IMG/VR virus record: IMGVR_UViG_3300021256_000003
Coordinates: 1 to 64,000 of that record
DNA length: 64,000 nt
DNA from: a virus
Lineage: Duplodnaviria; Heunggongvirae; Uroviricota; Caudoviricetes
Direction: 5' to 3' (one strand)
In this document: positions 16,956 through 64,000 of the stretch, one piece after another
How positions within the stretch are numbered: the first letter of the stretch is position 1
How the letters are laid out: each line of letters opens with the position of its first letter
The notes under the pieces: model-generated
What the model saw: the letters and a program-made list of their open reading frames with translations, nothing else
Database searches by the model: none
Told to the model about the DNA's origin: nothing
Made by a program: the position numbers and the translations under genes

Positions 16956-16966
16956 TCTTGTTATTT

Positions 16967-18027: not shown

Positions 18028-18104
18028 GTATCCGTAGCTCAGCTGGTATTTAGAGCACAGGATTTTTAATCCTGGAGTCGTGGGTTCGAACCCCACCGGA
18101 TACA
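18028..18104 (+). tRNA. tRNA-Lys (anticodon TTT)
   Basis: Acceptor GTATCCG/CGGATAC, anticodon stem CAGGA/TCCTG with loop TTTTTAA, T arm GTGGG-TTCGAAC-CCCAC. Confidence 0.85.
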
Positions 18105-18113
18105 CTAACTAAT

Positions 18114-18186
18114 ACTGATGTAGCTCAGTGGTTAGAGCAGATGCCTTATAAGCATCAGGTCGCTGGTTCAAGCCCAGCCATCAGTA
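18114..18186 (+). tRNA. tRNA-Ile (anticodon TAT, reads AUA)
   Basis: Acceptor ACTGATG/CATCAGT, anticodon stem GATGC/GCATC with loop CTTATAA, T arm GCTGG-TTCAAGC-CCAGC. Confidence 0.8.
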
Positions 18187-18204
18187 CATTAAAATTTTTA
18201 CACA

Positions 18205-18741
18205 ATGAAATTAAAATATAGAATACAACGAAGTATTGGAAATATCTATAAAAAGATATTTGGTTATAAATTTGTAAATTTTAGTTCATTAAAAGAATAT
18301 CATGATTGGTATAATTCTAAAAAGTTTGAATTCTATTGTAAGATAGGATTATTTAATGGACACTATGATAGTCCAATACAAACAAGTCTTAAATTAACAA
18401 GTCCTGATATGTTTGATTGGAATGAAATTAAACAAGAGCATGGTCCAAATTTAAAACTTATCTGTGAAGAATGTCAAGATAAGTTCGGTAAGCTTTGTGT
18501 TTTTAATTCTAGTTATACAAATAAATCTATAATACTTACAGCTGGTAAGTTTACTGGTATAGAGATAACACATGAAGATTATTACTATATAGTTGAATAT
18601 GGTGATGGTCATACTAGTTATAGCAGTTGTGCAGGAAGAATATTATTTATAGATGAAGATAAATCCACTAAAAAACAAATTGATACTGAATTAGGACCTT
18701 TAACAATATTTGAATATCAAGGAATAAATTATGTAAAATAA
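18205..18741 (+). CDS. hypothetical protein
   Basis: 178 aa ORF. Confidence 0.5.
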   Translation: MKLKYRIQRSIGNIYKKIFGYKFVNFSSLKEYHDWYNSKKFEFYCKIGLFNGHYDSPIQTSLKLTSPDMFDWNEIKQEHGPNLKLICEECQDKFGKLCVFNSSYTNKSIILTAGKFTGIEITHEDYYYIVEYGDGHTSYSSCAGRILFIDEDKSTKKQIDTELGPLTIFEYQGINYVK

Positions 18742-18769
18742 GTCCTTTTTCAATATATATTCTTCTTTT

Positions 18770-19020
18770 TTATTAAAAAATACTTGGAGGTAGGCTTGGA
18801 AGCAGCCATCCTTTAAAGAGTGACATTCAACAGTACCACCCTTTATACAAAAGGGGTATAAAGTGTGTTGGTACACAATGTTGAGTAAACGTAAAACGTG
18901 ACACTAACATATTGTTGAGTAATCCTGTGAGAGTCGACGAGAGCAGGTCAACGCAATATGTAACTTTAAGTTTGCAATGAAAGTGGTCTTTGGTGTAATA
19001 ACACACAAGTATTTTTTTTT
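18770..19020 (+). ncRNA. candidate structured non-coding RNA in the tRNA cluster (unknown family)
   Basis: 250 nt with no ORF and locally elevated GC. Several stems, for example CTTTATA-loop-TATAAAG and GTACCAC...GTGTTGGTAC. Ends in a T9 run just before a tRNA. Confidence 0.3.
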
Positions 19021-19024
19021 CAAT

Positions 19025-19096
19025 GCTTCTGGAGTCTAGTTGGTAAAATGCGGGATTTGTACTCCTGAGTCCACAGTTCGAATCTGTGCAGAAGCT
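19025..19096 (+). tRNA. tRNA-Thr (anticodon TGT), imperfect D stem
   Basis: Acceptor GCTTCTG/CAGAAGC, anticodon stem CGGGA/TCCTG with loop TTTGTAC, T arm CACAG-TTCGAAT-CTGTG. The D stem has 3 of 4 pairs and G at position 8. Confidence 0.5.
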
Positions 19097-19124
19097 CTAT
19101 ATAATATATAAAATATAATTAAAT

Positions 19125-19724
19125 ATGAAAGTTGATTGGAATAATGAAAAGGAAAATTTAGCTCGTATGATTTAGAATAAAGAATCATATGAATCTATAG
19201 GAAGATATTATAGTGTTTCTGGAACAACTATTAAGAAAACTGCTATCAAGCTTGGAATCGAACTAGAACCAAGAAGAACAATAAATAAGGTTGAAACATT
19301 CTAGAAAGGAATAATAAAGACACATCGTTATTGTTTAAATTGTGGTAAAGAATTAGAAGGACAAAAAAAGTCTAAAAATATTTTTTGTGATTGTACATGC
19401 CAACATGAGTATGAATATAAAGAATATATTCGTCGTTGGAAAAATGGTGAAGAAAATGGTTTGAATGGTGAATATGGTATATCAAATCACATTAAACATT
19501 ACCTTTTCGAAAAACATAATTGTAAATGTGAAAAATGTGGTTGGGGTAAAACAAATGAATTCACTGGTACAATACCATTGGAAATACATCATATAGATGG
19601 CAATTATAAAAATAATAAAGAGGAAAATCTTCAATTACTTTGTCCAAATTGTCACTCATTGACAGAAACATATAAATCACATAATAAAAAAGGTAGACAA
19701 GGAAGAAAAAAATATTATAAATAG
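19125..19724 (+). CDS. HNH homing endonuclease (N-terminal HTH + Zn finger + HNH) containing two in-frame TAG codons
   Basis: A single frame runs from ATG 19125 to TAA 19722-19724, interrupted only by TAG at 19173-19175 and 19302-19304. It contains IGRYYSVSGTTIKKTAIKLGI (HTH), CLNCG...CDCTC (Zn finger) and HHIDGNYKNNKEENLQLLCPNCH (HNH). The ORF track shows only the last 87 aa. Confidence 0.6.
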
Positions 19725-19795
19725 CCGTTACCCTAATTGGTTAAGAGATTAATTTAATCAGCCTGTCGTGGGTTCAAGTCCCTCCGGCGGCTCAA
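19723..19795 (+). pseudogene. tRNA-like remnant (good T arm/acceptor, no foldable anticodon arm)
   Basis: GTGGG-TTCAAGT-CCCTC T arm and partial acceptor pairing GCCGTTA/..CGGCGGC. The central region folds only as GATTA-ATT-TAATC. It directly abuts the HNH gene stop. Confidence 0.3.
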
Positions 19796-19800
19796 CTTAT

Positions 19801-19874
19801 AGTTCCGTAGTTCAGTTTGGTTAGAATACATGCCTGTCACGCATGGGGTCGCGGGTTCGAGTCCCGTCGGAACT
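19801..19874 (+). tRNA. tRNA-Asp (anticodon GTC)
   Basis: Acceptor AGTTCCG/CGGAACT, anticodon stem CATGC/GCATG with loop CTGTCAC, T arm GCGGG-TTCGAGT-CCCGT. Confidence 0.85.
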
Positions 19875-19883
19875 GCTTATTTT

Positions 19884-19956
19884 GGACAGATAGCTCAGCT
19901 GGTAGAGCGCGGGCCTGAAGAGCCCGGCGTCGTTGGTTCAAATCCAACTCTGTCCA
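19884..19956 (+). tRNA. tRNA-Phe (anticodon GAA)
   Basis: Acceptor GGACAGA/TCTGTCC, D arm GCTC..GAGC, anticodon stem CGGGC/GCCCG with loop CTGAAGA, T arm GTTGG-TTCAAAT-CCAAC. Confidence 0.85.
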
Positions 19957-20070
19957 CAAGTAATATTTAACGAAAAATAAGTCTAGAAAATAGTAGTTCA
20001 CGCCTACACCACTGGCACCAGTTACCCTGACCAGGATAGACTAAGAGTGTAAGTCGTCTAGACTTTATAC

Positions 20071-20141
20071 TGGAGTGTAGTTTAGAGGTAAAATGTCGCT
20101 CTCCAAAAGCGAAGTCGGGGGTTCGATTCCCTCCACTCCTG
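20071..20141 (+). tRNA. tRNA-Trp (anticodon CCA)
   Basis: Acceptor (T)GGAGTG/CACTCCT, anticodon stem TCGCT/AGCGA with loop CTCCAAA, T arm GGGGG-TTCGATT-CCCTC. Confidence 0.7.
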
Positions 20142-20155
20142 CTAAATTTTAGGAA

Positions 20156-20446
20156 ATGGAAACAGAATATCGTATAAAAACTAAATTCAAACCAGGAGAT
20201 ACTGTGTTTGCACTTAATAAGTATCCTGCTGGAGGTCGTATATTTAATACAATAATACACGATATTTGTATATGTATAGATAAAGCTGGAATACACATTA
20301 AGTATCAAATTCCTGAACGTTTAAAAATGCCTATGCCAGAATCTTCTTTATTTGAAACTATGGAAGAAGCTGAACAAGCTAAACAAGAATGGTTAAATAA
20401 ACCAGAGGTAAAAGAGCGTTCAGATAGATTAAAAAACTTAAAGTAA
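20156..20446 (+). CDS. hypothetical protein
   Basis: 96 aa ORF. Confidence 0.45.
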   Translation: METEYRIKTKFKPGDTVFALNKYPAGGRIFNTIIHDICICIDKAGIHIKYQIPERLKMPMPESSLFETMEEAEQAKQEWLNKPEVKERSDRLKNLK

Positions 20447-20826
20447 TGGAAAAGAATGTTACTGAATTAAAATTCAATATAGGTGATATTATTGAATATA
20501 TTGGTCCTAGAAAAGAGTTAGTTTCTGAACGATATGTAATTAGGAATATTAACAATGATTGCTATATTACAAACAAAAATAATATTCCGATCAAATTCCA
20601 AGAGCATTATAGGCTAGTGTCTGAAAATAATGAAGTTGATATAACTAAATTAAACGCTTTAGCTTATCTTGAACAGCTTGGATATGTTTGTTTACCTCCA
20701 GATTATAAAACTTATATAGCAACATGTATTGGACCTGGAGAAAATACGGCTTTATATACTTTTAAAACTACAGATATTCCAAGTCCTTTCGGTAAGAAAC
20801 TTGATATTATAATTGTTAAAAAATGA
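20446..20826 (+). CDS. hypothetical protein
   Basis: 126 aa ORF. Confidence 0.45.
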   Translation: MEKNVTELKFNIGDIIEYIGPRKELVSERYVIRNINNDCYITNKNNIPIKFQEHYRLVSENNEVDITKLNALAYLEQLGYVCLPPDYKTYIATCIGPGENTALYTFKTTDIPSPFGKKLDIIIVKK

Positions 20827-21190
20827 GTTATATAATATGAAGAATTATGTAAGTTTTGAAACATCAAAACTTTTAAAAGAGAAAGGATTTGATGAGCCTA
20901 CTAATTGTTTTTATTTTATAAATGGAACATTTAGTAATAATAATTTTTATACAAAGAATTCATATACAAGACATTATGCAGCTCCTACCCTCCAAATAAC
21001 AATGGAGTGGTTAAGAAAAACACATTTTCTTTTTATAGATATTAACCCATTAACAGGTTATAAATGGTCATGGTCAATTTGGCTTATGAATGATCCAAAT
21101 CAAAAAGTGGGCGAATCGGTAGAAGTTTTTTCTACCGATAAAGAAGCGATAGAAGCAGCAATTAAATATGGTCTTGAAAATTTAATTTAA
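20813..21190 (+). CDS. hypothetical protein
   Basis: 125 aa ORF. Confidence 0.45.
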   Translation: MLKNELYNMKNYVSFETSKLLKEKGFDEPTNCFYFINGTFSNNNFYTKNSYTRHYAAPTLQITMEWLRKTHFLFIDINPLTGYKWSWSIWLMNDPNQKVGESVEVFSTDKEAIEAAIKYGLENLI

Positions 21191-21192
21191 CT

Positions 21193-22800
21193 ATGGAAAA
21201 CTATAAAAAGAAATACGAAGATTCTCTTGAAAGATGCAAGAAAGAGTTTAATTTTGATAATCTTGCATATTCTCACGAGGAGATAAAACAAAGACTTGAA
21301 CGTGTCTTCCCCGAACTTAAAGAGAGTGAGGATGAGAGGATAAGGAGAGGTTTAATAGCAAAATTATCTCAAGATAAAGAGTTGCACCACAAAGAAATTG
21401 CTTGGCTTGAAAAACAAAGTAAACAAGAACAATTATATATTCGCTTTGGTGAAATTCCAGCTGATGAAAAATCTAAGATTTACCAAGGAGAAATAGAAGT
21501 TGGTACTGAAAATGGAGTATCTGTTTATCCTGCCTTTAAAACAGATGAAGGAAATATTGTTTTAGGGTTAAATTTACCTATAACAAAGACTACTTTATAT
21601 ACTCAACAACATTTGCTTGAATATGACAACAGACCATGTTATCTTGTAAAAGGTAATTATGTCGGTAAGGATTTTGACGGACAGCCTTTGATTAACAATA
21701 TTAGTATTATTGAAAAGATTGATGGCTATAGAATCAAAGAAAAAAATCAAGGCAATCAAGCAAATCCATACAGCGGAATATCATTTGAATACAATGGCCA
21801 CACTTGGGGAATGTGTGCAAGAGATAATGGAGTAGAAATTTTAATAGATAGTAATCTTAAAGCTTTTATTTCATTAGAAAAATCTTTTATCTATCCTGTT
21901 TATCCTCAGCCAGTTCTTGCACCAAAATCAGCACTTGAAGCAAGTAAAGAAGAAAAGATTAATAATCAGAATTGTGTTAAACCTGCTGATAAGATCGAGC
22001 CAAAGTTTAAGGTTGGTGATTGGATTACTGATGGTACAAGTACGTTTCAGATTGTAAAAATAGAAGATGAATGGTACATTGCAGATGATGGAGACAAAGT
22101 CTGTTTCTATGTAGTTCATCAATATTATCACCTTTGGACAATTCAAGATGCAGAAGATGGCGATGTACTTGCAAGTGATAATGGATGTCCTTTTATTTAT
22201 AAAGAATCTAATGATACAAAGGCACAATTTTACTGTTGTGTAGGCATTACTAATAGGTTCTGCATTGGCGATGATACAATTTATTGTGGATATAAAGAAT
22301 CATCTAAACCAGCTACAAATAAACAGTATGATCTCTTATTTCAAAAGATGAAAGAGGCAGGTTATGAATGGGATGCTGAGAAAAAAGAGTTAAAGAAAAT
22401 TGAATCGAAATCTGCTAAGTGTATTCAATGGACAGGCAAGAATCTAAAAGAGGTTATAGACTTTACAGGTAAAAGTGCAAGATTTGACGAATGGTTCAAG
22501 TCTTGGGATGAATATGAAGCTTATGTTCATTCTCACGGAGATATTTTTAAACTGTTCTGTGTAGACGGAAGTCACTATGAAGTTCCAGTAGGTGCATGGA
22601 TAGTTAAGACTCCGGATGGTTATAACATTCCTTCTAGTTTTAGATTCGTTCCGAAACTTGCCGAATGGAATGAAGAAGATGAAGACATGTTCAATAATGT
22701 TATCATGTGTTTAGACGGTAATTTTAAGTCTGATAAAAGTATGATAAATTGGATTAAATCTATCAAAAATAGATACACTCGAAAGTCTGACAAGGAGTAA
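21193..22800 (+). CDS. hypothetical protein (535 aa)
   Basis: Long ORF with no recognised motif. Confidence 0.5.
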   Translation: MENYKKKYEDSLERCKKEFNFDNLAYSHEEIKQRLERVFPELKESEDERIRRGLIAKLSQDKELHHKEIAWLEKQSKQEQLYIRFGEIPADEKSKIYQGEIEVGTENGVSVYPAFKTDEGNIVLGLNLPITKTTLYTQQHLLEYDNRPCYLVKGNYVGKDFDGQPLINNISIIEKIDGYRIKEKNQGNQANPYSGISFEYNGHTWGMCARDNGVEILIDSNLKAFISLEKSFIYPVYPQPVLAPKSALEASKEEKINNQNCVKPADKIEPKFKVGDWITDGTSTFQIVKIEDEWYIADDGDKVCFYVVHQYYHLWTIQDAEDGDVLASDNGCPFIYKESNDTKAQFYCCVGITNRFCIGDDTIYCGYKESSKPATNKQYDLLFQKMKEAGYEWDAEKKELKKIESKSAKCIQWTGKNLKEVIDFTGKSARFDEWFKSWDEYEAYVHSHGDIFKLFCVDGSHYEVPVGAWIVKTPDGYNIPSSFRFVPKLAEWNEEDEDMFNNVIMCLDGNFKSDKSMINWIKSIKNRYTRKSDKE

Positions 22801-22899
22801 CTATTATAGTTAAGATGTGCTATAAGCGGATGTTTCTATAATATAGAACCATTTGTATTATTAGAAGACAACTTAAATAACCCTAAATGGAGGTAGACT

Positions 22900-23073
22900 A
22901 TGAGTAGAGCAAAGGCGAAACTAGCAATAGTCCATGATTTACAAAGTAAGCAATCTGATATAATCTTAACAAAGAAAGATTGTGATATGATTGCAGCTGC
23001 GTTATTGGAAAAGTATGAATATTCAGAAGTTAAGGAAATGTATTTATTTTTTAAAAGATTAGGATACATATGA
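22900..23073 (+). CDS. small hypothetical protein (57 aa), below the ORF-track cut-off
   Basis: ATG preceded by AAATGGAGGTAGACT. Its stop overlaps the next ATG (ATGA). The listed minus ORF 22836-23069 is likely spurious. Confidence 0.35.
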   Translation: MSRAKAKLAIVHDLQSKQSDIILTKKDCDMIAAALLEKYEYSEVKEMYLFFKRLGYI

Positions 23074-23375
23074 AATTAGTAGACAAAGACACTATAGTTG
23101 CTGAAATAGAAAAAAGATTAAATGCTAATGGATCGTTTGACGAATTTGGTGACGAAACGTGGTTTGAAGAAAATTGTTGGCTTGCAGCTTATAAGTCTAT
23201 TCTCTCATTCATAAATACCCTTGAAACGAAAGAAGTGGATTTGGACAGAGAAATCAGACGTTATAGAATGAGGAATCCCATTATACAACATAGAGAAGAA
23301 TCACTATATGACTACATGGCAAATGTTGCTAAACACTTCTTTAAACTAGGTCTTAATGCAAAAAAGAAGGAATAG
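23070..23375 (+). CDS. hypothetical protein, paralog of 24211-24534
   Basis: Shared N-terminal pattern VAEIEKR...NGSF..W.DEN....L..I.SFI.TLE. Confidence 0.45.
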   Translation: MKLVDKDTIVAEIEKRLNANGSFDEFGDETWFEENCWLAAYKSILSFINTLETKEVDLDREIRRYRMRNPIIQHREESLYDYMANVAKHFFKLGLNAKKKE

Positions 23376-23377
23376 AT

Positions 23378-23626
23378 ATGCTGACAGTAATAGTGTTCAC
23401 AATTCTAATCTTCTTGCTAATATATGACGATTACCTTTATAAAAGAGGAAGATATAAGTACCGCGTTATTGTGGGTATTAAAGGTGAGAGTATTGACTCA
23501 TGGGAAGAGTATAATGTATATGCTAACCTATATCATATAGCAGAAGGTAAGGCAAAATATCTGTATGTAAAGGATAATATAGTGCCTTATGAAGAGTTAG
23601 AATGTATAACAGAAAAGATAGATTGA
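23378..23626 (+). CDS. small membrane-anchored protein
   Basis: 82 aa with an N-terminal TM helix. Confidence 0.35.
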   Translation: MLTVIVFTILIFLLIYDDYLYKRGRYKYRVIVGIKGESIDSWEEYNVYANLYHIAEGKAKYLYVKDNIVPYEELECITEKID

Positions 23627-23821
23627 ATCACATAGAAAGAAGAGTAATATGACACAAGAAGAATTAATTGAATTTCTTTCAAAAAATTTGACTATTGAAG
23701 TATCACATCCGGAACACGATGTCGGATATTATAGTACTTATATGGAACCAGACGAACATAATATTACAGTTGCAGTCAAATTATGTGGAAAACTAATCTG
23801 TAAAGGTACTTCTTATTAATT

Positions 23822-24205
23822 ATGACACAAGAAGAAAAAGAACTATTGATGAAGGATATTTCTGCAAGGTTGCAGTATAAAGTTCATTGCCGTGTCTTTA
23901 AATTAAATGAAGATATAAAAGAAAACGATGATATTTTATACGGTGTTATTGGTGATAATATTATAACATTAAAATCTAATGAAGATGAATGTTTAATGTA
24001 TTACCAAATAAAGCCCTATCTCCGTCCAATGTCTAGTATGACTAAGGAGGAAAAGGTTGAGTATGATTCTTTTAATGCTCCAACTGCTCACAGAAAAGTG
24101 TGGATTAATAAAATCGATTGGCTATTATCTAAACATTTTGACCTACGTGGTCTTATTCCGATGGGACTTGCATTGGAGATGCCTGAAGGAATGTATAATA
24201 ATTAA
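23822..24205 (+). CDS. hypothetical protein, paralog of 25246-25596
   Basis: Shared PFLRPMSSMT..EE..YESF and DYRGLIPM.LALE.P.EMY. A further truncated copy of the N-terminus lies at 23649-23822 (MTQEE...). Confidence 0.45.
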   Translation: MTQEEKELLMKDISARLQYKVHCRVFKLNEDIKENDDILYGVIGDNIITLKSNEDECLMYYQIKPYLRPMSSMTKEEKVEYDSFNAPTAHRKVWINKIDWLLSKHFDLRGLIPMGLALEMPEGMYNN

Positions 24206-24210
24206 AGATT

Positions 24211-24534
24211 ATGACACAATATATTGACAAAAACGCTGTTGTAGCGGAGATAGAGAGAAGACAAAAAGAAGAAGTGTCTTATTGTGAAAACGGCTCATTT
24301 GCCTCATGGGCTGACGAAAATCATTATTTTACTTTAGAGACTATTAAAAGTTTTATTGATACCCTTGAAGTGGAAGAGATGGACGAAAAATCTACCAAAC
24401 ATTTTCCTCACTGGAAGCCTACGAAAGAACAAATGTCTGATTTGTATCATGCCGCAACTATGAACTCTATATCTTGCCCTTCACTTAAATTACTGTACAA
24501 CGACCTAAAAGTAATAGCACAGAAAGGAGAATAA
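24211..24534 (+). CDS. hypothetical protein, paralog of 23070-23375
   Basis: See the paralog entry at 23070-23375. Confidence 0.45.
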   Translation: MTQYIDKNAVVAEIERRQKEEVSYCENGSFASWADENHYFTLETIKSFIDTLEVEEMDEKSTKHFPHWKPTKEQMSDLYHAATMNSISCPSLKLLYNDLKVIAQKGE

Positions 24535-24537
24535 TGA

Positions 24538-24834
24538 ATGATATTCTATCATGGTACATCAGAAGAAAATTGGGAAACTATTCAGAAAGAAGGTATTCTC
24601 TATGGTAGAAGATTTGTAACTGATAATGATGGTAATATTGTTAAAGAAGTAGATAGATGTACTTATCTTGCTACTGACATTGAAGAGGCTAAATATTATG
24701 GTAATGTTGTTTTACAAGTAGAATATAACCCATTCTTATCAAGACATAATAACTATAAAGAAAACTGTTGGCAAGTAAGAGTATATGAACCTATTCCTAT
24801 TTCTAAGATTAAAGTAGTAAAGAAAGGAGAATAA
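24538..24834 (+). CDS. hypothetical protein
   Basis: 98 aa ORF. Confidence 0.4.
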   Translation: MIFYHGTSEENWETIQKEGILYGRRFVTDNDGNIVKEVDRCTYLATDIEEAKYYGNVVLQVEYNPFLSRHNNYKENCWQVRVYEPIPISKIKVVKKGE

Positions 24835-24835
24835 A

Positions 24836-25249
24836 ATGCAACATTACACAACAATAGAACAAAGTAAGAAATTAGTAGAATTAGGATTGAATCCTGATAC
24901 TGCCGACATGAGTTATTCCTATGATTTTGATGATTCAAGATATATAATAACAATGACTCCAGCTAAAAGTTGGATAGTTCCCAAATATGCAGAATGTATA
25001 GAAAATCCACAAGTACTGCCTTGTTGGTCTCTTGGTGCATTGTTGAAATTATTAAGAGAGTATAATGACTGCAATAAACTTGATATCTTTTCAAATAGAA
25101 GCCAAAAGTGGCAGATTACAATATCCTACTATGATGTTGTATGGAAAGAGCATGAAGAAGTAAGTATAAACTTGCTTGAAGCATCCTACTCCATGATAGT
25201 ATGGCTGCTAGAAAATGAATATATCAAAACTGAAAAGGAAATATCATGA
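24836..25249 (+). CDS. hypothetical protein
   Basis: 137 aa ORF. Confidence 0.4.
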   Translation: MQHYTTIEQSKKLVELGLNPDTADMSYSYDFDDSRYIITMTPAKSWIVPKYAECIENPQVLPCWSLGALLKLLREYNDCNKLDIFSNRSQKWQITISYYDVVWKEHEEVSINLLEASYSMIVWLLENEYIKTEKEIS

Positions 25250-25596
25250 ATGTAAATGACTATTCTGTTCTAATAAAAGAGTTTAGCGAAAGACTTCCGC
25301 ACGATTTGTATTTTTCCCATTGCGGTAAAGTACATAAATTGAAATCAGTTGAACTTGACAGTAAAAATGTCCTCAACAACAAATATCCTATTGAAATATG
25401 TTATCCATTTCTTCGCCCGATGTCAAGTATGACAAATGATGAAGAAGAAACTTATGAATCATTTATTATTGGTATTGCAACGGATGAAGTTGGTGCTTGG
25501 GAATTAACTGATTGGCTCAACAAAAATAAATTTGACTATCGTGGTCTAATTCCTATGAGTCTTGCACTTGAAGCACCCAAAGAAATGTATGCCTAA
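25246..25596 (+). CDS. hypothetical protein, paralog of 23822-24205
   Basis: See the paralog entry at 23822-24205. Confidence 0.45.
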   Translation: MNVNDYSVLIKEFSERLPHDLYFSHCGKVHKLKSVELDSKNVLNNKYPIEICYPFLRPMSSMTNDEEETYESFIIGIATDEVGAWELTDWLNKNKFDYRGLIPMSLALEAPKEMYA

Positions 25597-25752
25597 AAGT
25601 TTAATAATAAGTATTATTAGTTTTATTATTTATTTTCTATCGATTAAATTTGAAAATAAATATCATTGTGATTGGTTTAATTGGACTGTTCAATACGTTG
25701 TGTTAATTATTGGGACAATTAATTTAATAATATATTTTGATATTTATATCTT

Positions 25753-26163
25753 ATGAATAATAAATTAACAATCGTTCATCATAAAAATAAATGGGATTGG
25801 GGTGAAAGTATTATATGTATTACGAATGATGGATATGGAAGTGCAACATTAAGTTTTACTGCTGAACCTATTTATGATGGAGAATCCGATAAAGTACAAT
25901 ACATAAAACAAGCAACTATCTCCGGTGTGTCAGTATATACTACTGAGAGACAGAAAGGTTATGGTAATCTTCTTTTAGAAGATTGTGAGAATTTAGCTAA
26001 AGAAGCTGGATATAAAGAAGTCTACTTATGGTCAGAATTAAATTCTGAGCCGTATAAATGGTATAAGCGTCATGGTTATATAGATACTAATGAATTAAGT
26101 TATATTCCATCAGAAGATAATACCTCTAATCCTGTTGTTAAACTAATGAAAATGTTAACATGA
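25753..26163 (+). CDS. GNAT-family N-acetyltransferase
   Basis: Motif A-like RQKGYGNLLL and overall GNAT fold pattern. Confidence 0.55.
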   Translation: MNNKLTIVHHKNKWDWGESIICITNDGYGSATLSFTAEPIYDGESDKVQYIKQATISGVSVYTTERQKGYGNLLLEDCENLAKEAGYKEVYLWSELNSEPYKWYKRHGYIDTNELSYIPSEDNTSNPVVKLMKMLT

Positions 26164-26432
26164 GAAATAATAAGTATATAACTGATTTTTATGTTGGTAT
26201 GAAGATTAAAATTGCTTTACCAACTTCTTGGTGTCAAGTAAAATCTAACTCACCTATACAATGGCTTAAAGGTAAAATTACATCAATACCAATTGATAAA
26301 CGAACTGGAGAACCAAGTAAAGATGCTATTATCGTTTCAGTTTGGTCTAAAAAGGTAGGAAGAATTGATAATATGCTGTGTTTTAGAGATAAAGAAACTG
26401 GTACATTTGACCATATAATTCAACAAAAATAA
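26160..26432 (+). CDS. hypothetical protein
   Basis: 90 aa ORF. Confidence 0.4.
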   Translation: MRNNKYITDFYVGMKIKIALPTSWCQVKSNSPIQWLKGKITSIPIDKRTGEPSKDAIIVSVWSKKVGRIDNMLCFRDKETGTFDHIIQQK

Positions 26433-26593
26433 TGGATCAAAATCTTAGAGAATATATAATTAGAGAACTAAAATATACTTCTCACCCAAAGTACTATAAA
26501 TATATTGAAGAATATGTTGATAATCTAGATGATTATCATCTAATGTATTGGAAAGCTTGGAGTGAGGGAAAAATGAGTATATATTCGTAAATT

Positions 26594-26884
26594 ATGAGAA
26601 ACGATAGAATTATTAACATTGATTTTCAAGGTTGGCCAGTATATGCTTTAACTTTAAGAGAAATATTATGTCATCTTGGAGCAGTTGAAAAAGATGGGGT
26701 TTTAGGATTTAACATTGATGATAAAAAATTAGATATTGTTCCTAATGTTTATGATGATGATGGAATGGCTTATGGAGTAAATAAACGCTATATATCAGAA
26801 GCTGGTTCTTATAGTGATGATGGTGATTATATAAATATCTTTACTGATATTGAAGATAATAGAATTAATGAAAAATTATCTTAA
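26594..26884 (+). CDS. hypothetical protein
   Basis: 96 aa ORF. Confidence 0.4.
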   Translation: MRNDRIINIDFQGWPVYALTLREILCHLGAVEKDGVLGFNIDDKKLDIVPNVYDDDGMAYGVNKRYISEAGSYSDDGDYINIFTDIEDNRINEKLS

Positions 26885-27068
26885 TCATGTGTTTATTTAA
26901 AAAGAATTCAAAACATAAATGTGAACATAAATATAAAACTATAAAAGTATATGAATGTAAACACACAAGTATGCTTTGTAATGAATATATAACAATACAT
27001 TATATTCAAGAATGTGAGTTATGTCATGATATGAGACATTATAGTTTTGATATTGATTAACTTTCTAA

Positions 27069-27141
27069 GCCCTCTTAGTTCAACGGATTAGAACGTAGGT
27101 CTACGGAACCTAAAATAAAGGTTCGAATCCTTTAGAGGGTA
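27069..27141 (+). tRNA. tRNA-Arg (anticodon ACG)
   Basis: Acceptor GCCCTCT/AGAGGGT, D arm GTTC..GAAC, anticodon stem TAGGT/ACCTA with loop CTACGGA, T arm AAAGG-TTCGAAT-CCTTT. Confidence 0.85.
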
Positions 27142-27145
27142 CTAT

Positions 27146-56752: not shown

Positions 56753-56810
56753 TAAGCCCCTTGTAAGAAGCCTTAATGGTTTCCTGCAAGGGGCTTATTT
56801 TTTTATTTAT
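56753..56810. terminator. bidirectional terminator at the convergence of the plus and minus transcription blocks
   Basis: AAGCCCCTT...AAGGGGCTT 9-bp stem flanked by A/T runs on both sides, between the TAA of 56395-56745 (+) and the TAA at 56816 (-). Confidence 0.6.
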
Positions 56811-56815: not shown

Positions 56816-59800
56816 TTAATTTTCTCTCATTGATTGTAAGATGGGTTTAACTGTTCTGACCGCAGCCATATTTTCAGAAGTTGCATTTAATAATGTTTTC
56901 TCTCCTGTAAATACATCAAATCCATCTTCAATAACATTTCTAAGAGCACCAAAAGAATATGGTCTCCATTCAATTAATGGCTCACCAATAGAATTTATAA
57001 AATTAAAGTCTTGGAATGAACGTGTAATAGTTTGATTAATAAAATGAGAAGATACATAACTAATTGCATTACCCATATCTCCTTTATCTTTATTAAATTC
57101 CTTCTTTTCATCATCATCCCATTTTCCTAATAACAATGCTACTAAATGTCCAACAACTAACCACATAAACATATCTATTGCTAAATGCTTTAAGTTAGAA
57201 CGATAACAGGTTCGTAGATTATCGTTAGGATTATTCCATAATTCTTGCCAAGCTTCTTGATATCCATTTTCTTTAACAGAATCATAGAAGTGAGCTAGAG
57301 TTAATAAAATACCTTCTTGATGCTGTCCTTCCCAACGCCGTACTTTAACGCCACTACAATTAGGGTCATCAATAGTTACAAATCCTTTACTTAAATCAAT
57401 TTCTCCATTTTCATCTTTGGTATAATATAACTACTAACCATTCTCCTAATAATCCACAAATCTTCCTAATAATTTAGAACCACCAGGAGCAAGATATTGA
57501 TTCTTTTTAGCTGACCAATATGTTTTCATCTACATGTATAATCCGCCTAAAAACATATAATGTACAAGTGATTTATCTTCTTTATTATAATAACCATATA
57601 CATTATCGGCAATAGACTTCATACTTTGAGATTCTCTATTAGAATATGCTCTAGGTAAATCATCTCCAAGTTTAAATAAACTACCATCAGGATTTACTAC
57701 ACCTTCGTTAATAAACTCTTTTGCAGCAGCAAAATAACGAGCATAAGATTCACGTTCCTGCTCATTAAATTGACTTAAAGATTTGCCTTGCTTTTTGGCT
57801 TGGACATAATCTTTATAACGAGCATCTTTAGAGAAATCGTATATTAACTCACCATTATCATTTAAAGTATGAGCTTCAAAGGAACCATCACGTCTCATCT
57901 ATGCTTCAAAGATAGTCATTCGATTATAGTAATCAGGACGGGATGTAAAACGAAATGCTAAGTCATATACATGAGTAAACCATCCTTTGTCTGACGATAG
58001 TCTGTTTGCATACTAATCGGCGTCCATATCATTAATACCATATAACTCATTAATTCTTGACAATACAGTAGGAGTTAAATGACTGTGGAAAAGTTCAGTT
58101 TCAACATGTTTAGCAGAATCCCACATATGTTTAGATGTAAATGCATCAGTTCCATCTGGTTTCTTAATAATAAGACCTAAATTTTTCCAAATACCATCAA
58201 CTCTCTAATATGTCCATTGAACAGGGCTAAATCCTAATGCCAGCAAAGAGGCTACTGATCTGGCTCTACCAGTCAATCGCATTAATTTAGATATTTTATC
58301 ATCAGATAAGTTTTGATTGTGTACTTGTACTTTAACAATATTATCAAGATAATCAAGAGTATCTTTAAAGTTCTCTTTATCAGTAGGATTTATAAAGTTA
58401 CCTTGGTGAGCAATTGCAATTGCACACGCTTTCATTTTAATCAATTCAGAATCAAAAGCATTCTTTCTAGCATACTAATAAGAATGATTTAAGAGTAATG
58501 TTTCAAGATTATGCTCATAAGCATTAGCTCCATATTTACGAAGCATTCTCATTCGAGTAGTTTCATCGTTTCCAGCATCAAATACTACAGATGCTTTATA
58601 AATATCATTATTAGTTTGTTGTGTTTCTGCATCTGTAGATGCTATAAAATCCATAGTATTAGATAGGGCATTTTTAGGAGCTAAATTCTAAACTAATGTT
58701 TTTAATGAACCTAAAAGATTGTCAGTCTTTAATTTAGAACCAGTCGATGCAGCTAGTAAAGGAACTCGATAATATCTTCTATCACCAGAATTTTTCCACA
58801 TTTCTAAGTTAGCAGCATCCTTTGGCCATCTATCTCTGTTTATAGTATCAAGAACATACTCTAAGAACTTCTTTTTAACTCCTGTTAAAGTATTAGGATT
58901 AACAAAAACAAAATCTCCATCAGGAGTTACTTCTGTCATATCCATATATAAACTAGTTTGATTACTTAAGTACTCCTATACAGTATTAAACCCAACAGAT
59001 TCTTTTAATTCTTTTACATATTTATTTACTGTATAACTTTGTTTTAGAATAATATCTCTTACTTTCTAGTTTACATTTTTAACACTCACAGATACAGTAT
59101 TAAGCAGCTATGAACTAAAGTTACCAGGATTTTCAAGATTTAAACCTTCAGCACCTTCACGAAGAATTCTTCTAAACGTCTATAACCATTTGTCAGAATC
59201 TTTAGTTTGTTGTCTCATAATAACTCCATTAATGTCATTATAGGCAACAGCTGCTTGATTATATAATTGGATAATAGGATCAGCTAAAGAATTACTATCA
59301 CGAGCTACATTAATAGTTCTATTTGGGTAGAGTCTATTAATTGTCTACATTATATCCTCTAACTCACTTTTTATTTTTAAAGGATTTGTTTCTCCAGCCC
59401 AATCAAATCCTGCGCTTGTTAATTCTTTTTTAATTAAATTATATTCAGGAGCACCACTATTCATAATTTCATTTATTTTTAAACGAAAATAATCAAGTTG
59501 ACTTAATAACTTAATTTTACCAGAATTAAATTTATCTTCTTCAAGAAGACTATGTTTAATTAGAGCATTCCAGTTATATAAATATTCTGAATTATAAATA
59601 GGCATTAGTCTTTGAGTAGAAGGATTTAAAACATTAATACTTTCAAATTGAGGTGTTCCTGCCCAATCTAAATTATTAAGAACAAGCATAGCCTCCATTC
59701 CTTCAATATTGCCTCTATTGGCTTTTAAGATTAAAGAGTTAGCATTAGAAGACTCCTCAATATCTTTAGCAAATGATCCATTTATATTAGTTCTACCTTC

Positions 59801-61618
59801 AGAAAATTTATAATTGTAATGTAAATCTCCGTTTACAATTTTAAATGCGACACAAGCTTTAGTTTGAATATTTTGTAAAACAACTATTCCGAAGTTTTTT
59901 GCAGTAGGCAGATCAATCACTTCGTAATTACCTTTACAATAAGGCTTCATTAGGTTTTCTAGATTTGCTTTATCAAATCCAGAATCTTTAAATGAAGCAT
60001 ATCGATATTCAAATGGTTGCCCTGACTTTACTGCTTCGTTAAAACTATCAATAAACGCATCAACTCTTTGGACATTTCTATCATTTATAGAACGTAACTA
60101 TTCCTAGACCTTTTGTACTAACTAAACTTTAGCAAAGTCTAAATTATTATTTATCGGAATAACAATTGGATCGTCGCTATAAGGTGTTTTATATTCTAAA
60201 GTTCCTAAAGCAGTGGGCTCAAAAGCTTTTTCTTCTTTTAATTTTTCACTAACCTACTCTTCTGACATATTTCTATCAGTTAAATGGTTAGGAAACCAAA
60301 TAGCCATTTGTTTAGTGACTTTTTCAATTAAATTAGAAGAAGTAGCAGAAACTTTATTTTCTGCGGGTATAAATTTATCAAGAGTATCATTAATATTTTC
60401 AGAATTAACTTCTGTTAATACCTATTGGATAACAGGGCTATCTTCAGATAAATCATTCTGTTTATAAGATAGACCGTCATAAGTATAACTTAATTTTTCT
60501 GGATCAGTTTCACCAGTATCGTTTAAATGAAATCCCTTTAATGTAATAGGCACAATAATACATTGTCCACCTTGAGTATTAACTCCAAATTTTCTTAGAA
60601 TACGTTGATAAGTACCAAGCTATAAAGTAAATGCACGTTTCTTTGCAGAGTTATATTGGTCGTAGCTTTTTGGTGAAGTTTTATAGTCGACAATGTGTAC
60701 ATATCCATTTTCATCAACAACTAATAAGTCAATTACACCGTGTAAAGTATGACATCCTTTATACTCATTAATATCGCCAGCAATATCTAGTTCAGGAAAG
60801 AATCTAGCTTTCGCTCCGAATTTCTGCTGTAGATTTACACGAAAATCCTACAACATTTTAACCATTTCTAAAAACTAGGATTCACTAATAAGATCCCCTT
60901 TCTTTATAGAATGGTCATAAATACTTAAAGGATCAGATTTCCAACGTTCATATTGAAGTCTAGCATAATCTGGATTAGCAGATTCCTCTTCAAAAACATA
61001 TTTATCTCCATTTTTAGAAAATAACCATTCAGATACAGAGTGTAAGGCTGTACCTATCTAACCTTGTTGTTTCCATTTTCTTTCAATTACATCTTTCCAT
61101 TTATTGTATGTCTCATCAGAATATGTTTGTTCTGGATTTAGAGTAGTTCCAGGATCGCTTATAGCTAGATATTCATTAATAATTTGAATTTCGTCTTCAG
61201 TAAATGTTCCGGGATTAATTGTACCAGAGACTGTACGAGGTTTCCAAGCATCAAGTCTTCTATTCCAATATTCTTCACCTCTAAATTCAGGAGTAATTAC
61301 ACTACCATCTTCAGTACGGAATGCAGCGATAAATGCATTAACACCCATCACAGGAGGTTTCTCTTCAATATTCATAGTACCGTCATCAGCATATTCGACA
61401 GTGCGATTTTCATAATATTGTCTACTTTCTTCTTTAGCTCTTTTACCAGCTTCAGTAACAGCGCCTTGAATTAAAGATACATTAGTTGCTCCTGTAGCAT
61501 TCATTTCAAAAACTACATCGCCTATCTATTCCATTAAAGGAAGCTTTTCACAGATAAAATCTGCTAATTGAACTTCGTTTCCTATTAAATTTCCTTTATA
61601 AGTATATGTACATTTCAT
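56816..61618 (-). CDS. very large late (virion/structural?) protein, about 1600 codons, translated with TAG as a sense codon
   Basis: Six track fragments (56816-57172, 57530-57898, 58205-58444, 58688-58945, 59345-59950, 61058-61504) all share one frame. Each checked break is TAG: 57530, 57899, 58013, 58205, 58688, 59345, 61058 and 61526. It terminates with TAA at 56816-56818. The upstream limit is TGA at 61646-61648, giving a candidate start at ATG 61618 or 61534. Confidence 0.55.
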
Positions 61619-62673
61619 ATGCAATCTTCTCTTAATTCTCCGCGTTCAATTAATCTTTCTTTAGCATTTGCAATAATTCTATGTAATGCGGCATCGTCTA
61701 CATAAGATTGAAACTTATTTTGCATAGTTGAAGAATTAACCATTTGTCCTAAATTATATAAAGACTATTCACTCCAGATTTCTTTAGGCATGGCTCTTAC
61801 ACTATTATCACCCATTAGGATAGTATCTAAAGTTCTAGATACTTCATAATTTAGTTGATAAAGTGTTTCCTAGTCTAGATTATTTAAATAGCTTGGTAAT
61901 CCACTTAGATATTTAGAATATTCTTCTACGAATAATTCTTCAAGAACATCCATCTAGGATCTATTTGGATATAATTTAGCTCTTTCAGTTAACTGCTCGT
62001 TATTTTGGAGGGTCTACACTAAATTATAATAAGTATTTGGCTATTGAAATTTTATAGATCCAAGGAAAATATGTAAAAGCTCGTGAGTCGGAGAATGTAT
62101 ATCAGCTATATCAGTATTTACATAAATTTGTCCATTATATATAAAAGCACTAGCCCAATTAACTTGAGGGATATTGCCTAGAATTTCCTTTGCTTCATTA
62201 GTAGTAATTGAAGTAGTTTGAATGCCATAACATTTAGCTAACTTCTATAACTATTGTTCTATAAAAATTCTAGAATCCTCTGTAATAGTTTTAAGGTCAG
62301 TTTGCTTAAAATCCAGTGGATTAGGTCTATTATTTATAGATAACACCACCTAGTCATCTACAATAGAGTAATCTATTAATAAGTCTCGATATATATTATT
62401 TAATTGTTGTATAGCCTCTGCAACAGTTGAAGTATTAGTTAATTCAAGTAAGTTAGAAGCAGGTATAGAATCTAATTTAGAGAGGTGTAAGTTCTATCTT
62501 AATCCTTCTGATGAATCTATACCTCCCATCTCATCTAATTGAGGCCAACGTCCGTTATGCTCTTTTAGATATTGTATAACTTTATAACGTAAATTGGACT
62601 AGGAAAGTCCAGGGACCTTGTTTTGAAGATCCCTGAACTTATCTAATCCGGGTAATTCACAATATGTATTCAT
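61585..62673 (-). CDS. late protein (about 362 codons) with about 11 in-frame TAG codons
   Basis: ATG at 62671-62673 in the minus frame runs to TAA at 61585-61587. In-frame TAGs lie at 62602, 62494, 62350, 62245, 62251, 62041, 62014, 61954, 61870, 61765, 61582 and 61564. The translation is protein-like (for example NGRWPQLDEMGG). Confidence 0.5.
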
Positions 62674-62676
62674 TTA

Positions 62677-64000
62677 TTAACAGCCTTTACTTTCATTTTC
62701 AACTGTAGAGCGAACCACATCTCTTAACACTCTAACATCTAAAACTAACGATGCTCGTTTAGTAGGATTGCTATAATCAAATGCAGGACGAAGATATGAT
62801 GGAGAATCATTAATAAGTTTATTAATAACTTTTTGTCGAATTTCCTCTGTTGCTCCTAAAGATTCACCATTAATCGATGTAATCTTACCTGTACTTAAAT
62901 CAACAGTGGCAATCCATCTTTCATCGCCTTCTCCTGTAACTTGAGTAGTAACGTTTTCTCCTCTATAACCAGGATATATTAAATACTGATAATTCCAAGT
63001 CTGATGTTCTCTGTCTAATGACATTGTAACTGGAGAAAATTCTCTCCAATATTCATCATACGGTGTTATTGTTTCATCCTCTTCACCAATAATATCAGCA
63101 ATATCTTCATAGGATTCTTCTCCTATATCCATATCAGATGAAGCTTGTTTTCTTCTAGCCTCTTGTTCTTTAGCAATACTTTCTTCAGAGCGTTTTAATG
63201 TTGGACCTAGTCTATTTCTATCCTAAATCCATGCATATTCGCCTAATGTAGAATAACGACTGCGCTTCATAGCACACCAAGAAATAATTTCTGAATCAGA
63301 AAGATATACATCTCCAGTAGCATCCTTTTGTGCAATAAACGTATTATATTTATTCTGAAGATTACTATCAACGTAATCAAACATTGCCATTAAAGATTGA
63401 TGTCCTTTTGCTCCACCATAAACATACATTGAATATAAATAGAAGGCATCAGCAAAATTAGCTAAAGAATTACTAGTATTTGGAAGTTTAATTCCTCTTA
63501 ATAAATTAAACGCAGCAGCAATTTCTAATAGTCTAGATTCCTCTAAAGAGCCGTGTTTAGGCATTAAATCTACATCTAAACTAAATACTGAAGAAGCAGC
63601 TTTAGAAGGTAAGTTATTCATATCAACCATTCTTAAGTGCTTTACAAATTCATTGTCTGAATAGAATTTCTTTAAGAATGGAATTGCTACTACTTCCATA
63701 TAACGTTTAAATGAAGCTAACCCAGCTTCAGTTCCTAATGGTAAAACCATATTTTCATTAGAAGAAACTACTTTGATGTTCTATCTAAAACCAGGAGTTC
63801 CATTATATGTAAAATATTCAAATTGAGCAGGAATACCAAAAGTAATATTATCAGTAGATAACCACTCTAGTAAATATTTCATATTAATAGCTCTATTAAG
63901 ATTTCTGATGTAATTTTCTCTATCAGTATTATTTTGTAGTCCTAGTTTTCTGGACCACTCTTGAGTATTATAACGTTCAATGGCTCTAGCTCTAGAAGAG
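62677..64000 (-). CDS. late protein, 5' part beyond the window, TAG-containing
   Basis: Fragments 62677-63132 and 63223-63750 share a frame and are joined by TAG at 63223-63225. A further in-frame TAG lies at 63781-63783. Ends with TAA at 62677-62679. Confidence 0.5.

What the first reader, a model, noticed from the sequence alone, without database searches (positions are those of the whole stretch)
56816..64000. Late-gene block is readable only if TAG is a sense codon (stop-codon reassignment, probably TAG to Gln)
Across 7 kb on the minus strand there is no conventional ORF longer than about 200 codons. The fragments fall into just three reading frames. Every internal break checked by eye is TAG (reverse complement CTA): 57530, 57899, 58013, 58205, 58688, 59345, 61058, 61526, 62602, 62494, 63223, 63781 and others. 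Positions that look like true gene ends are TAA (56816, 61585, 62677), and one TGA (61646) bounds a gene start. One frame carrying six consecutive fragments would be very unlikely by chance (about 0.4%). In the smaller gene TAG occurs in roughly 3% of codons, a Gln-like frequency. The plus-strand early genes use TAG as a normal stop (for example 7654-7656). This matches the known pattern in some crAss-like and other gut phages, where late genes are recoded and early genes are not, which may gate late-gene translation. The sequence itself does not reveal which amino acid is inserted.
Basis: partly seen in the sequence, partly recalled or inferred. Interest (0 to 1): 0.9.

Follow-up and report, generated by a model that had tools for sequence, protein, structure and literature searches.

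The report
Phage late genes read TAG as glutamine
This stretch belongs to a large (about 175 kb) crAss-like gut phage whose virion-polymerase gene block uses the stop codon TAG as a glutamine codon; the recoding is real, but it is already well documented for this kind of phage.

Summary
On the minus strand of 56816-64000, three back-to-back genes are open only if TAG is a sense codon:
- A 1600-codon gene (56816-61618) with 24 TAG.
- A 352-codon gene (61615-62673) with 10 TAG.
- The last 440 codons of a 3432-codon gene (62677-63999) with 2 TAG.
None has an in-frame TAA or TGA before its terminal stop.

The read-through 1600-aa protein has 57 full-length homologs. Against a 90%-identical relative, 36 of 41 TAG-versus-sense differences involve CAA or CAG. 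In two homologs verified to use the standard code, TAG columns hold Gln five to six times more often than background, including invariant Gln columns. TAG therefore means Gln.

The early genes on the plus strand are intact under the standard code, and 8 of them end in TAG. One HNH endonuclease on that strand probably carries in-frame TAGs.

The phage is crAss-like, judged by its primase, a crAss001_48-family protein and a giant DxDxD polymerase-like protein. Its size and tRNA block fit the large-genome "Zeta" group. Late-gene TAG-to-Gln recoding in this group was published in 2021 and confirmed by proteomics in 2022. Public gene calls already translate this genome's TAG as Q.

One item stays open: no tRNA with a CUA anticodon was found in 95 kb (54%) of the genome.

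The parts
62677..63999 (-). C-terminal 440 codons of a 3432-codon gene for a giant protein with a conserved DxDxD motif (GSDLDID), which is crAss-type virion RNA-polymerase-like. There are 2 in-frame TAG in the window (63781-63783, 63223-63225). The gene ends in TAA TAA.
   Evidence: The rest of the gene was read in the identical public contig L013: 49 TAG, no TGA, and a single terminal TAA in 3332 codons, with the DxDxD motif present. The same motif is found in relatives L001, L002 and L004. Polymerase identity rests on the motif and on Yutin 2021 (PMC7886860); no PDB sequence match was found.
61615..62673 (-). Gene B, 352 codons, with 10 in-frame TAG (62599, 62494, 62350, 62251, 62245, 62041, 62014, 61954, 61870, 61765). 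It carries a conserved HExxH (HELLH) motif. It ends at TGA 61615-61617, which overlaps the ATG of gene A (ATGA).
   Evidence: Searches give the frame, TAG positions and junction. The exact TAG=Q translation is already in public protein collections. Orthologues of the same length sit in the same position in L001-L003, and HExxH is conserved. No Pfam or PHROG hit was found.
56816..61618 (-). Gene A, 1600 codons, with 24 in-frame TAG. It has an N-terminal PD-(D/E)xK nuclease domain (about residues 171-383) and a large uncharacterised C-terminal part. It ends at TAA 56816-56818.
   Evidence: Searches give the frame. There are 57 full-length homologs carrying PF12705, and a PHROG exonuclease hit. 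TAG columns align with Gln.
56754..56773 (-). Terminator-like hairpin followed by a T-run, downstream of gene A. It sits at the convergent junction with the plus-strand early genes, and GC skew changes sign here.
   Evidence: This is a consensus match only.
19125..19736 (+). Probable recoded gene on the early/tRNA strand: an HNH endonuclease with in-frame TAG at 19173-19175 and 19302-19304. A third TAG at 19722-19724 is followed by TAA at 19734-19736.
   Evidence: The frame is open for 205 codons if TAG is sense. PF01844 HNH scores 26.9 bits. After the last internal TAG there is no ATG, only a TTG start that would give an 87-aa product. A paralogue at L008:6989-7501 has TAG inside the HNH motif itself.
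2069..27142 (+). The part of the phage tRNA block that lies in the window: 11 tRNA genes (Val-UAC, Glu-UUC, Leu-UAG, Cys-GCA, Lys-UUU, Ile-UAU, Thr-UGU, Asp-GUC, Phe-GAA, Trp-CCA, Arg-ACG) plus a tmRNA gene at 4032-4433. None has a CUA anticodon.
   Evidence: ARAGORN, Rfam at gathering and E-value thresholds, ARAGORN with introns allowed and lowered thresholds, and a custom anticodon-arm scan that recovered the control tRNA-Gln.
7654..7656 (+). Example of TAG ending an early gene (6961-7656, a Metallophos phosphoesterase). The next in-frame TAA lies 2 codons further on. It is one of 8 such early ORFs.

Best explanation
The window comes from a roughly 175-kb crAss-like (Crassvirales, probably Zeta-group) gut phage. 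In its minus-strand block, and in the rest of the giant gene just outside the window, TAG is a glutamine codon (genetic code 15). TAA and TGA remain stops. The block holds the giant DxDxD polymerase-like protein, an HExxH protein and a 1600-aa PD-(D/E)xK protein.

Shown here: TAG is an in-frame sense codon, and it stands for Gln.

Inferred from published work on these phages, not tested here:
- Early in infection the host's release factor 1 terminates at TAG, so these proteins cannot be completed.
- Once a TAG-decoding tRNA charged with Gln (normally a phage CUA suppressor charged by host GlnRS) accumulates, the late proteins are made.
- Recoding therefore acts as a translational timer for late genes.
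- Early replication genes avoid internal TAG and work under either code.
For: Sense codon:
- The block holds 36 in-frame TAG and no internal TAA or TGA in 2395 codons.
- The full giant gene in the identical contig has 49 TAG.
- Shuffles never exceed 221 open codons, against 1609 observed.
- There are 57 full-length homologs of the read-through protein.

Glutamine:
- Against the 90%-identical relative L001, window TAG pairs with TAG 16, CAA 15, CAG 4 and AAA 1. In the reverse direction the counts are TAG 16, CAA 15, CAG 2 and other 4.
- TAG falls in columns where Gln is invariant in 56 of 56 homologs (protein positions 333 and 1363).
- In the two homologs shown to translate under the standard code, Gln occupies 6 of 22 and 5 of 20 TAG columns, against a 4% background. 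Gln is also the best BLOSUM62 candidate.
- Gln content rises from 3.3% to 4.8% when TAG is counted, matching the homologs' 4.6%.
- CAG is depleted in the late genes (9 CAG, 36 TAG, 70 CAA) compared with the early genes (123 CAG, 416 CAA).

Early/late split: the plus-strand replication and nucleotide-metabolism genes are intact under the standard code, and 8 of them end in TAG.

Lineage:
- The primase hits are almost all crAss-like phages.
- A crAss001_48-family protein is present.
- A relative carries a crAss_MUZ protein.
- The genome is 174,954 bp, seen in two circularly permuted assemblies.
- It has 25 tRNAs.

Literature:
- Yutin 2021 (PMC7886860).
- Borges preprint (10.1101/2021.08.26.457843).
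- Peters 2022 proteomics (PMC9523058).
- Zeta-group survey (PMC12386605).
Against: - No tRNA with a CUA anticodon was found in 94,929 contiguous bases (54% of the genome). This stretch appears to include the whole tRNA block, and the search went down to ARAGORN's 80% threshold.
- No release-factor or aminoacyl-tRNA-synthetase gene was found in the window.
- The timing and gating role is not testable from sequence.
- At least one gene on the 'early' strand (the HNH endonuclease) seems to need TAG read-through, so the split is not purely by strand.
- Polymerase identity of the giant protein rests on a motif and on synteny only.
Confidence: 0.9

Rival explanations
1. TAG is read as Gln, but without a canonical phage CUA suppressor tRNA. 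The decoder could be a highly divergent or intron-containing tRNA, the phage tRNA-Gln(UUG) acting near-cognately with release factor 1 disabled, or a host-supplied suppressor.
For: - No CUA tRNA was found in 95 kb, including the tRNA block.
- None was found in the tRNA-block loci of relatives L010, L011, L012 and L018.
- None was found in the 121.6-kb TAG-recoded relative MT835492.1.
- A tRNA-like gene with an insertion of about 100 nt in its anticodon loop sits directly after tRNA-Gln(UUG).
- The literature reports suppressors detected in only about 40% of TAG-recoded phages.
Against: - 80 kb (46%) of this genome could not be read, so the suppressor may simply lie there.
- Most amber-recoding Zeta phages in the published table do carry a CUA tRNA.
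- 83 TAG in three essential genes call for efficient decoding, which near-cognate reading does not give.
- The insertion-bearing tRNA-like element is absent at the same site in the equally recoded relative L010.
Confidence: 0.12
2. TAG encodes an amino acid other than glutamine, for example Glu, Lys, Tyr, Leu, Ser, Trp or pyrrolysine.
For: Some TAG columns are variable and hold K, E or D in homologs. Glu is the second-best BLOSUM candidate.
Against: - 36 of 41 TAG-versus-sense differences from a 90%-identical relative are with CAA or CAG, which is the same rate as the overall residue identity.
- TAG sits in invariant-Gln columns.
- Gln scores 60 against 46 (standard-code homologs) and 1996 against 1314 (all homologs) over Glu.
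- Proteomics on other crAss-like phages found Gln (PMC9523058).
Confidence: 0.02
3. The TAGs are genuine stops: the genes are decayed pseudogenes or independent small ORFs, or the TAGs are sequencing or assembly errors.
For: None beyond the appearance of the block under the standard code.
Against: - Only TAG interrupts the frames: there are no TAA or TGA and no frameshifts in 2395 codons.
- Full-length homologs exist.
- The sequence is identical in independent assemblies.
- Relatives have TAG at other positions in the same intact frames.
- TAG occupies catalytically conserved columns.
Confidence: 0.01

Closest known systems
Zeta-group crAss-like phages with amber (TAG to Gln) reassignment (Yutin et al. 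2021, PMC7886860; Zeta survey 2025, PMC12386605)
   Same: - Genome of 145-192 kb (here 174,954 bp) with low GC (31%).
- A block of 20-30 tRNA genes.
- polA, a DnaG-type primase, DnaB and SF2 helicases, an AAA+ ATPase, and Thy1, dUTPase and ribonucleotide reductase.
- A transcription block with a giant DxDxD protein.
- Homing endonucleases.
- TAG to Gln mainly in late genes.
- Early genes whose TAG stops are soon followed by another stop.
- A suppressor tRNA that is sometimes undetectable.
   Different: Membership by TerL, MCP or portal phylogeny could not be tested, because those genes lie outside the window. The genome length matches none of the 43 genomes tabulated in 2025. The published amber-recoding members all list a CUA tRNA, and none has been found here so far. 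The tmRNA gene is not mentioned in those papers.
Code-15 crAss-like phages validated by metaproteomics (Peters et al. [quoted passage not shown] (10.1101/2021.08.26.457843)
   Same: TAG is read as Gln in structural and late genes, while replication genes use the standard code. The proposed role is timing of late and lysis gene expression.
   Different: Those phages are about 100 kb and belong to other crAss families. The block examined here is the polymerase/transcription module, not the lysis or tail genes stressed by Borges. There is no protein-level evidence for this genome.
Other recoded gut phages (Lak, Agate, Jade and others; phAss-1, PMC10607447)
   Same: Stop-codon reassignment is concentrated in late genes. 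Suppressor tRNAs are often but not always detected. A homing endonuclease sitting in the early region is recoded, as in Agate phages.
   Different: These are unrelated lineages. Some encode release factors or tRNA synthetases as a 'code-change module', and none of these is seen in the window.

Membership tests
Genetic code 15 recoding in phages (TAG to Gln) | In-frame TAG codons inside conserved protein-coding genes, with TAA and TGA kept as stops | tested here: met
   The three genes hold 36 TAG and no internal TAA or TGA in 2395 codons. They end in TAA, TGA and TAA.
Genetic code 15 recoding in phages (TAG to Gln) | TAG positions align with glutamine in homologs | tested here: met
   This includes two homologs whose genes translate under the standard code.
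Genetic code 15 recoding in phages (TAG to Gln) | Phage-encoded suppressor tRNA with a CUA anticodon | tested here: inconclusive
   None was found in 94,929 bp (54% of the genome), including the tRNA block. 80 kb could not be read. The literature finds one in only about 40% of TAG-recoded genomes.
Genetic code 15 recoding in phages (TAG to Gln) | Recoding concentrated in late genes, with early and replication genes compatible with the standard code | tested here: met
   All long plus-strand ORFs are intact under the standard code. The probable exception is the HNH endonuclease at 19125-19736.
Genetic code 15 recoding in phages (TAG to Gln) | Gln actually inserted at TAG (protein-level evidence) | not testable with these tools
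   This needs proteomics of a sample that holds this phage.
Crassvirales (crAss-like phages) | Bacteroidetes-derived DnaG-family primase and the conserved replication set (DnaB, SF2/SNF2 helicase, AAA+ ATPase) | tested here: met
   tblastn hits of the primase (39090-40088) are almost all crAss-like phages. Pfam finds DnaB_C, ResIII/Helicase_C and AAA domains.
Crassvirales (crAss-like phages) | Transcription block with a giant protein carrying the DxDxD motif | tested here: met
   The GSDLDID motif is present in this genome (L013) and conserved in L001, L002 and L004. This is motif-level evidence only; no PDB sequence match was found.
Crassvirales (crAss-like phages) | crAss-specific protein families | tested here: met
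   PF21825 (crAss001_48) matches 51929-52180 with E = 1.4e-16. PF25731 (crAss_MUZ) lies next to the homologous block in relative L004.
Crassvirales (crAss-like phages) | TerL, MCP and portal genes grouping within the order; IHF and signature structural genes | not testable with these tools
   These genes lie outside the window and outside the loci that could be fetched.
Zeta group of crAss-like phages | Genome of 145-192 kb with a large tRNA block | tested here: met
   Two public contigs of 174,954 bp are identical to the window where they overlap it, and their start points differ, which indicates a circular genome. The genome has 25 tRNAs plus a tmRNA.
Zeta group of crAss-like phages | Placement in the Zeta clade of the TerL tree | not tested
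   No Zeta reference sequences were available in the searchable collections. The closest GenBank relatives are unannotated 'Bacteriophage sp.' records.

The most novel reading that the evidence does not exclude
This phage lineage reads 83 or more TAG codons in essential genes as glutamine without any canonical CUA suppressor tRNA. The decoder would be something not yet described. Candidates are the insertion-bearing tRNA-like gene next to tRNA-Gln(UUG), a modified phage tRNA-Gln, or a mechanism linked to the phage's own tmRNA.
Probability: 0.1. Interest if true: 0.65.

Novelty: already known. Interest (0 to 1): 0.2.

Why it matters
For annotation: under the standard code the block shatters into fragments and half of its coding sequence is lost, so this contig must be translated with code 15.

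For biology: it is one more instance of a documented strategy. Late-gene TAG-to-Gln recoding in crAss-like phages was described in 2021, backed by proteomics in 2022, and is handled by current phage gene callers. The exact TAG=Q protein from this genome already sits in public collections.

The only part with research value is the unresolved decoder. The whole visible tRNA block lacks a CUA tRNA, which adds a well-characterised case to the known puzzle that many recoded phages show no detectable suppressor.

Tried and rejected
- blastn (distant mode) of the block against GenBank phages found no match.
- A back-translated search of IMG/VR with gene B found no relative.
- PHROGs, Pfam and PDB sequence searches gave no function for gene B, the giant protein or the C-terminal 1200 aa of gene A.
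- The third homolog search, using the 440-aa C-terminal fragment of the giant protein, returned nothing. That ended genome walking past the giant gene.
- Exact-pattern scans found nothing in IMG/VR, in the GTDB genomes or in the first JGI scan. The second JGI scan added only 3.1 kb, with no tRNA.
- Suppressor hunt: all negative for a CUA anticodon.
  - ARAGORN at default settings, with introns allowed, and at 95/85/80% thresholds.
  - Rfam at gathering and E-value thresholds.
  - A custom anticodon-arm, T-arm and acceptor scan.
  - The tRNA-block loci of four relatives.
  - The 121.6-kb relative MT835492.1.
  - The one low-threshold 'tRNA-Pyl(cta)' call in MT835492.1 lies inside a coding frame and was dismissed.
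- 'Backup stop' test: TAG-terminated early genes are not significantly closer to the next TAA or TGA than other genes (p = 0.15).
- polA is not a lineage marker here. Its best hits are unrelated Proteus and Salmonella phages, consistent with the known swapping of polymerases among phages.
- Release factors and a GlnRS as a 'code-change module': none in the window.
- YqeY (a GatB-like domain) was considered as a Gln-tRNA link. It was set aside because standard-code relatives also have it.

Full report
**Observation**

I re-derived open frames on both strands under four stop-codon sets. Under the standard code, the minus strand of 56816-64000 has only six frames of 100 codons or more (122-250 codons). 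With TAG as sense it resolves into three frames:
- 56816-61645: 1609 codons, 24 TAG, ending in TAA.
- 61615-62673: 352 codons, 10 TAG, ending in TGA.
- 62677-63999: 440 codons, 2 TAG, ending in TAA TAA and running off the window.

Making TGA sense gives no comparable gain on this strand. The three genes abut. The giant gene's TAA TAA is followed directly by the ATG of gene B, and B's TGA overlaps the ATG of gene A as ATGA. In 2000 shuffles of the block the longest TAA/TGA-free run was 221 codons, against 1609 observed.

**Are the read-through proteins real?**

Protein A (1600 aa, TAG written as Q) found 57 homologs of 1450-1720 aa. Most cover 100% of the query, and nearly all carry a PD-(D/E)xK domain (PF12705).

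I fetched the DNA for four of them:
- The closest (90% identity, L001, NCBI GCA_963649875.1) and a 38%-identical one (L002) do not translate under the standard code. They carry 25 and 19 TAG in this gene.
- Two others (P0024 in L003 and P0049 in L004) translate under the standard code. They give evidence that does not depend on any gene caller's choice of code table.

All four loci show the same order, giant gene, then a gene of about 350 aa, then gene A. The giant proteins of L001, L002 and L004 share a GSD(L/F)DID motif.

**Which amino acid?**

Three lines of evidence agree on glutamine.
1. *Codon-level comparison with L001.* The window's 36 TAG face TAG 16 times, CAA 15, CAG 4 and AAA once. 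L001's TAGs face TAG 16, CAA 15, CAG 2 and other codons 4 times. So 36 of 41 TAG-versus-sense differences are with Gln codons. That is the same rate as the overall residue identity of 87%.
2. *The 57-sequence alignment.* TAG falls in columns where Gln is invariant (positions 333 and 1363, 56 of 56) or nearly so (851, 1138, 1240). In the two standard-code homologs, Gln fills 6 of 22 and 5 of 20 TAG columns against a 4% background. This is at least as often as at the query's own CAA/CAG positions. Gln is also the top BLOSUM62 candidate.
3. *Composition.* Gln content is 3.3% without TAG and 4.8% with it, against 4.6% in the homologs. CAG is depleted in these genes (9 CAG, 36 TAG, 70 CAA) relative to the early genes (123 CAG, 416 CAA). 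This is what replacement of CAG by TAG would produce.

Pseudogenes and assembly error are excluded. Only TAG interrupts the frames, and relatives have TAG elsewhere in the same frames. The window is base-for-base identical to two independently assembled public contigs over every stretch compared.

**Surroundings**

The plus strand from 1 to 56745 is an early/replication region. It holds the following:
- 11 tRNA genes and a full-length tmRNA.
- RNA ligase, phosphoesterases and an amidoligase/GATase cluster.
- YqeY.
- SF2 and DnaB helicases, a GIY-YIG endonuclease and a DnaG-type primase.
- NrdD, thioredoxin, dUTPase and DNA ligase.
- An AAA ATPase, a crAss001_48-family protein and a sigma-70-like factor.
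- A family-A DNA polymerase; its homolog in L001 carries the precomputed Pfam DNA_pol_A annotation, while my own Pfam scan of the window protein found nothing.
- ThyX.

These ORFs are intact under the standard code. Eight of them end in TAG, each followed by TAA or TGA within 0-21 codons. That spacing is not significantly tighter than for other genes. GC skew flips sign at the strand switch, and a terminator-like hairpin follows gene A.

There is one probable exception to 'early means standard code'. An HNH endonuclease frame at 19125-19736 has two internal TAGs and no ATG after them. A paralogue upstream of the window has TAG inside the HNH motif itself. This echoes the recoded homing endonuclease reported by Borges et al..

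**Whose genome is it?**

Exact look-ups found two contigs of 174,954 bp (ENA ERZ12302812 NODE_95 and ERZ28612970 scaffold_112). Both are identical to the window where they overlap it, and they start at different points, which implies a circular genome of that size.
- The primase's database hits are almost entirely crAss-like phages.
- There is a crAss001_48-family protein.
- A distant relative has a crAss muzzle-family protein next to the same block.

Genome size, low GC, a 25-tRNA block, polA, homing endonucleases and the giant DxDxD 'transcription block' match the Zeta group described by Yutin et al. 2021 and surveyed in 2025. Clade membership by TerL, MCP or portal could not be tested.

**Comparison with what is known**

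- Borges et al. propose that this gates late and lysis gene translation, and found suppressor tRNAs in only 40% of TAG-recoded genomes.
- Peters et al. confirmed Gln at TAG by metaproteomics in crAss-like phages.
- The public protein collection already holds gene B of this genome translated with TAG=Q.

The finding is therefore correct and already known.

**The open item**

I looked hard for the suppressor. I assembled 94,929 contiguous bases from a JGI contig, NODE_95, the window and scaffold_112. This is 54% of the genome and spans what looks like the whole tRNA block (25 tRNAs from Gly-UCC to Arg-ACG, including Gln-UUG).
- No CUA anticodon was found by ARAGORN (down to its 80% threshold, with or without introns), by Rfam, or by a custom scan that did recover the control tRNA-Gln.
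- Relatives' tRNA-block loci have none.
- MT835492.1 is an unannotated 121.6-kb GenBank relative. Its entire minus-strand block from 63.7 to 119.7 kb is TAG-recoded, and it also has none.

Because 80 kb of this genome could not be reached, this is 'not found', not 'absent'. It also matches what the literature already notes.

**Mechanism and confidence**

- Shown: TAG is a sense codon for Gln in these genes.
- Inferred from the literature: decoding by a Gln-charged suppressor that competes with release factor 1, and a timing role for late genes.

I put 0.9 on the recoding explanation. I put about 0.1 on a non-canonical decoder and a few percent in total on another amino acid or an artefact.

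Noticed in passing
window 4032-4433 (+): A full-length tmRNA gene (Rfam RF00023, 96.5 bits; tag peptide GNSHRNIISLYNERKAA, tag ORF ending in TGA) lies inside the phage tRNA block. It is conserved in relatives L010 and IMG/VR L012. tmRNA is not mentioned in the Yutin 2021, Zeta 2025 or Borges papers. It could deal with ribosomes that run off mRNA ends once TAG stops are suppressed; this is speculation.
   Followed up: partly
window 19125-19736 (+); also L008:6989-7501: HNH endonuclease genes in the early/tRNA region carry in-frame TAG codons. In the upstream paralogue the TAG lies inside the HNH motif. Recoding is therefore not confined to the minus-strand late block.
   Followed up: partly
L005:267-440 (about 9.2 kb upstream of the window start): A tRNA-like gene sits directly after tRNA-Gln(UUG). 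It has a perfect acceptor stem, D arm and T arm, but an insertion of about 100 nt in the anticodon loop, so its anticodon is ambiguous. It is absent at the same site in the recoded relative L010.
   Followed up: partly
L008:8457-8527 (outside the window): A weak HDV-like ribozyme match (23.9 bits; gathering score 44) lies immediately 3' of a tRNA-Met. This is the placement described for theta ribozymes in recoded gut phages (PMC10879173). No such match was found in the window's own tRNA cluster.
   Followed up: partly
L008:7751-7828 (outside the window): An atypical 'tRNA-Phe(GAA)' called by ARAGORN has G instead of U at position 33 and a divergent T loop. Rfam's tRNA model missed it. A similar call appears in IMG/VR relative L012.
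   Followed up: no
window 11896-16155 (+): A cluster of a phiEco32-like COOH-NH2 ligase, a class-II glutamine amidotransferase, Amidoligase_2, a cyclic-phosphate-processing receiver domain and a YqeY (GatB-like) protein. YqeY also occurs in standard-code relatives, so it is not specific to recoding.
   Followed up: partly
window 52393-53022 (+) and 51929-52180 (+): A sigma-70-like factor (regions 2-4) lies next to a crAss001_48-family protein, just upstream of the DNA polymerase gene.
   Followed up: no
window 40076-40630 (+): An open frame of 177 codons (counted from the in-frame TAG at 40097) with no ATG and a weak NUMOD1 match lies directly after the primase gene. It may be another homing-endonuclease-like gene with a non-ATG start or a read-through start.
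   Followed up: no
GenBank MT835492.1 (L015-L017): This unannotated 121.6-kb 'Bacteriophage sp.' record is a more distant relative. It has no standard-code frame of 300 codons or more on the minus strand, against 16 frames (16,862 codons, hundreds of TAG) when TAG is sense. It needs code-15 annotation.
   Followed up: partly
window 22800-31770 (+): A 9-kb stretch holds only short ORFs (under 150 codons) with no family matches apart from a weak GNAT acetyltransferase hit at 25753-26163. This is typical of early accessory genes.
   Followed up: no
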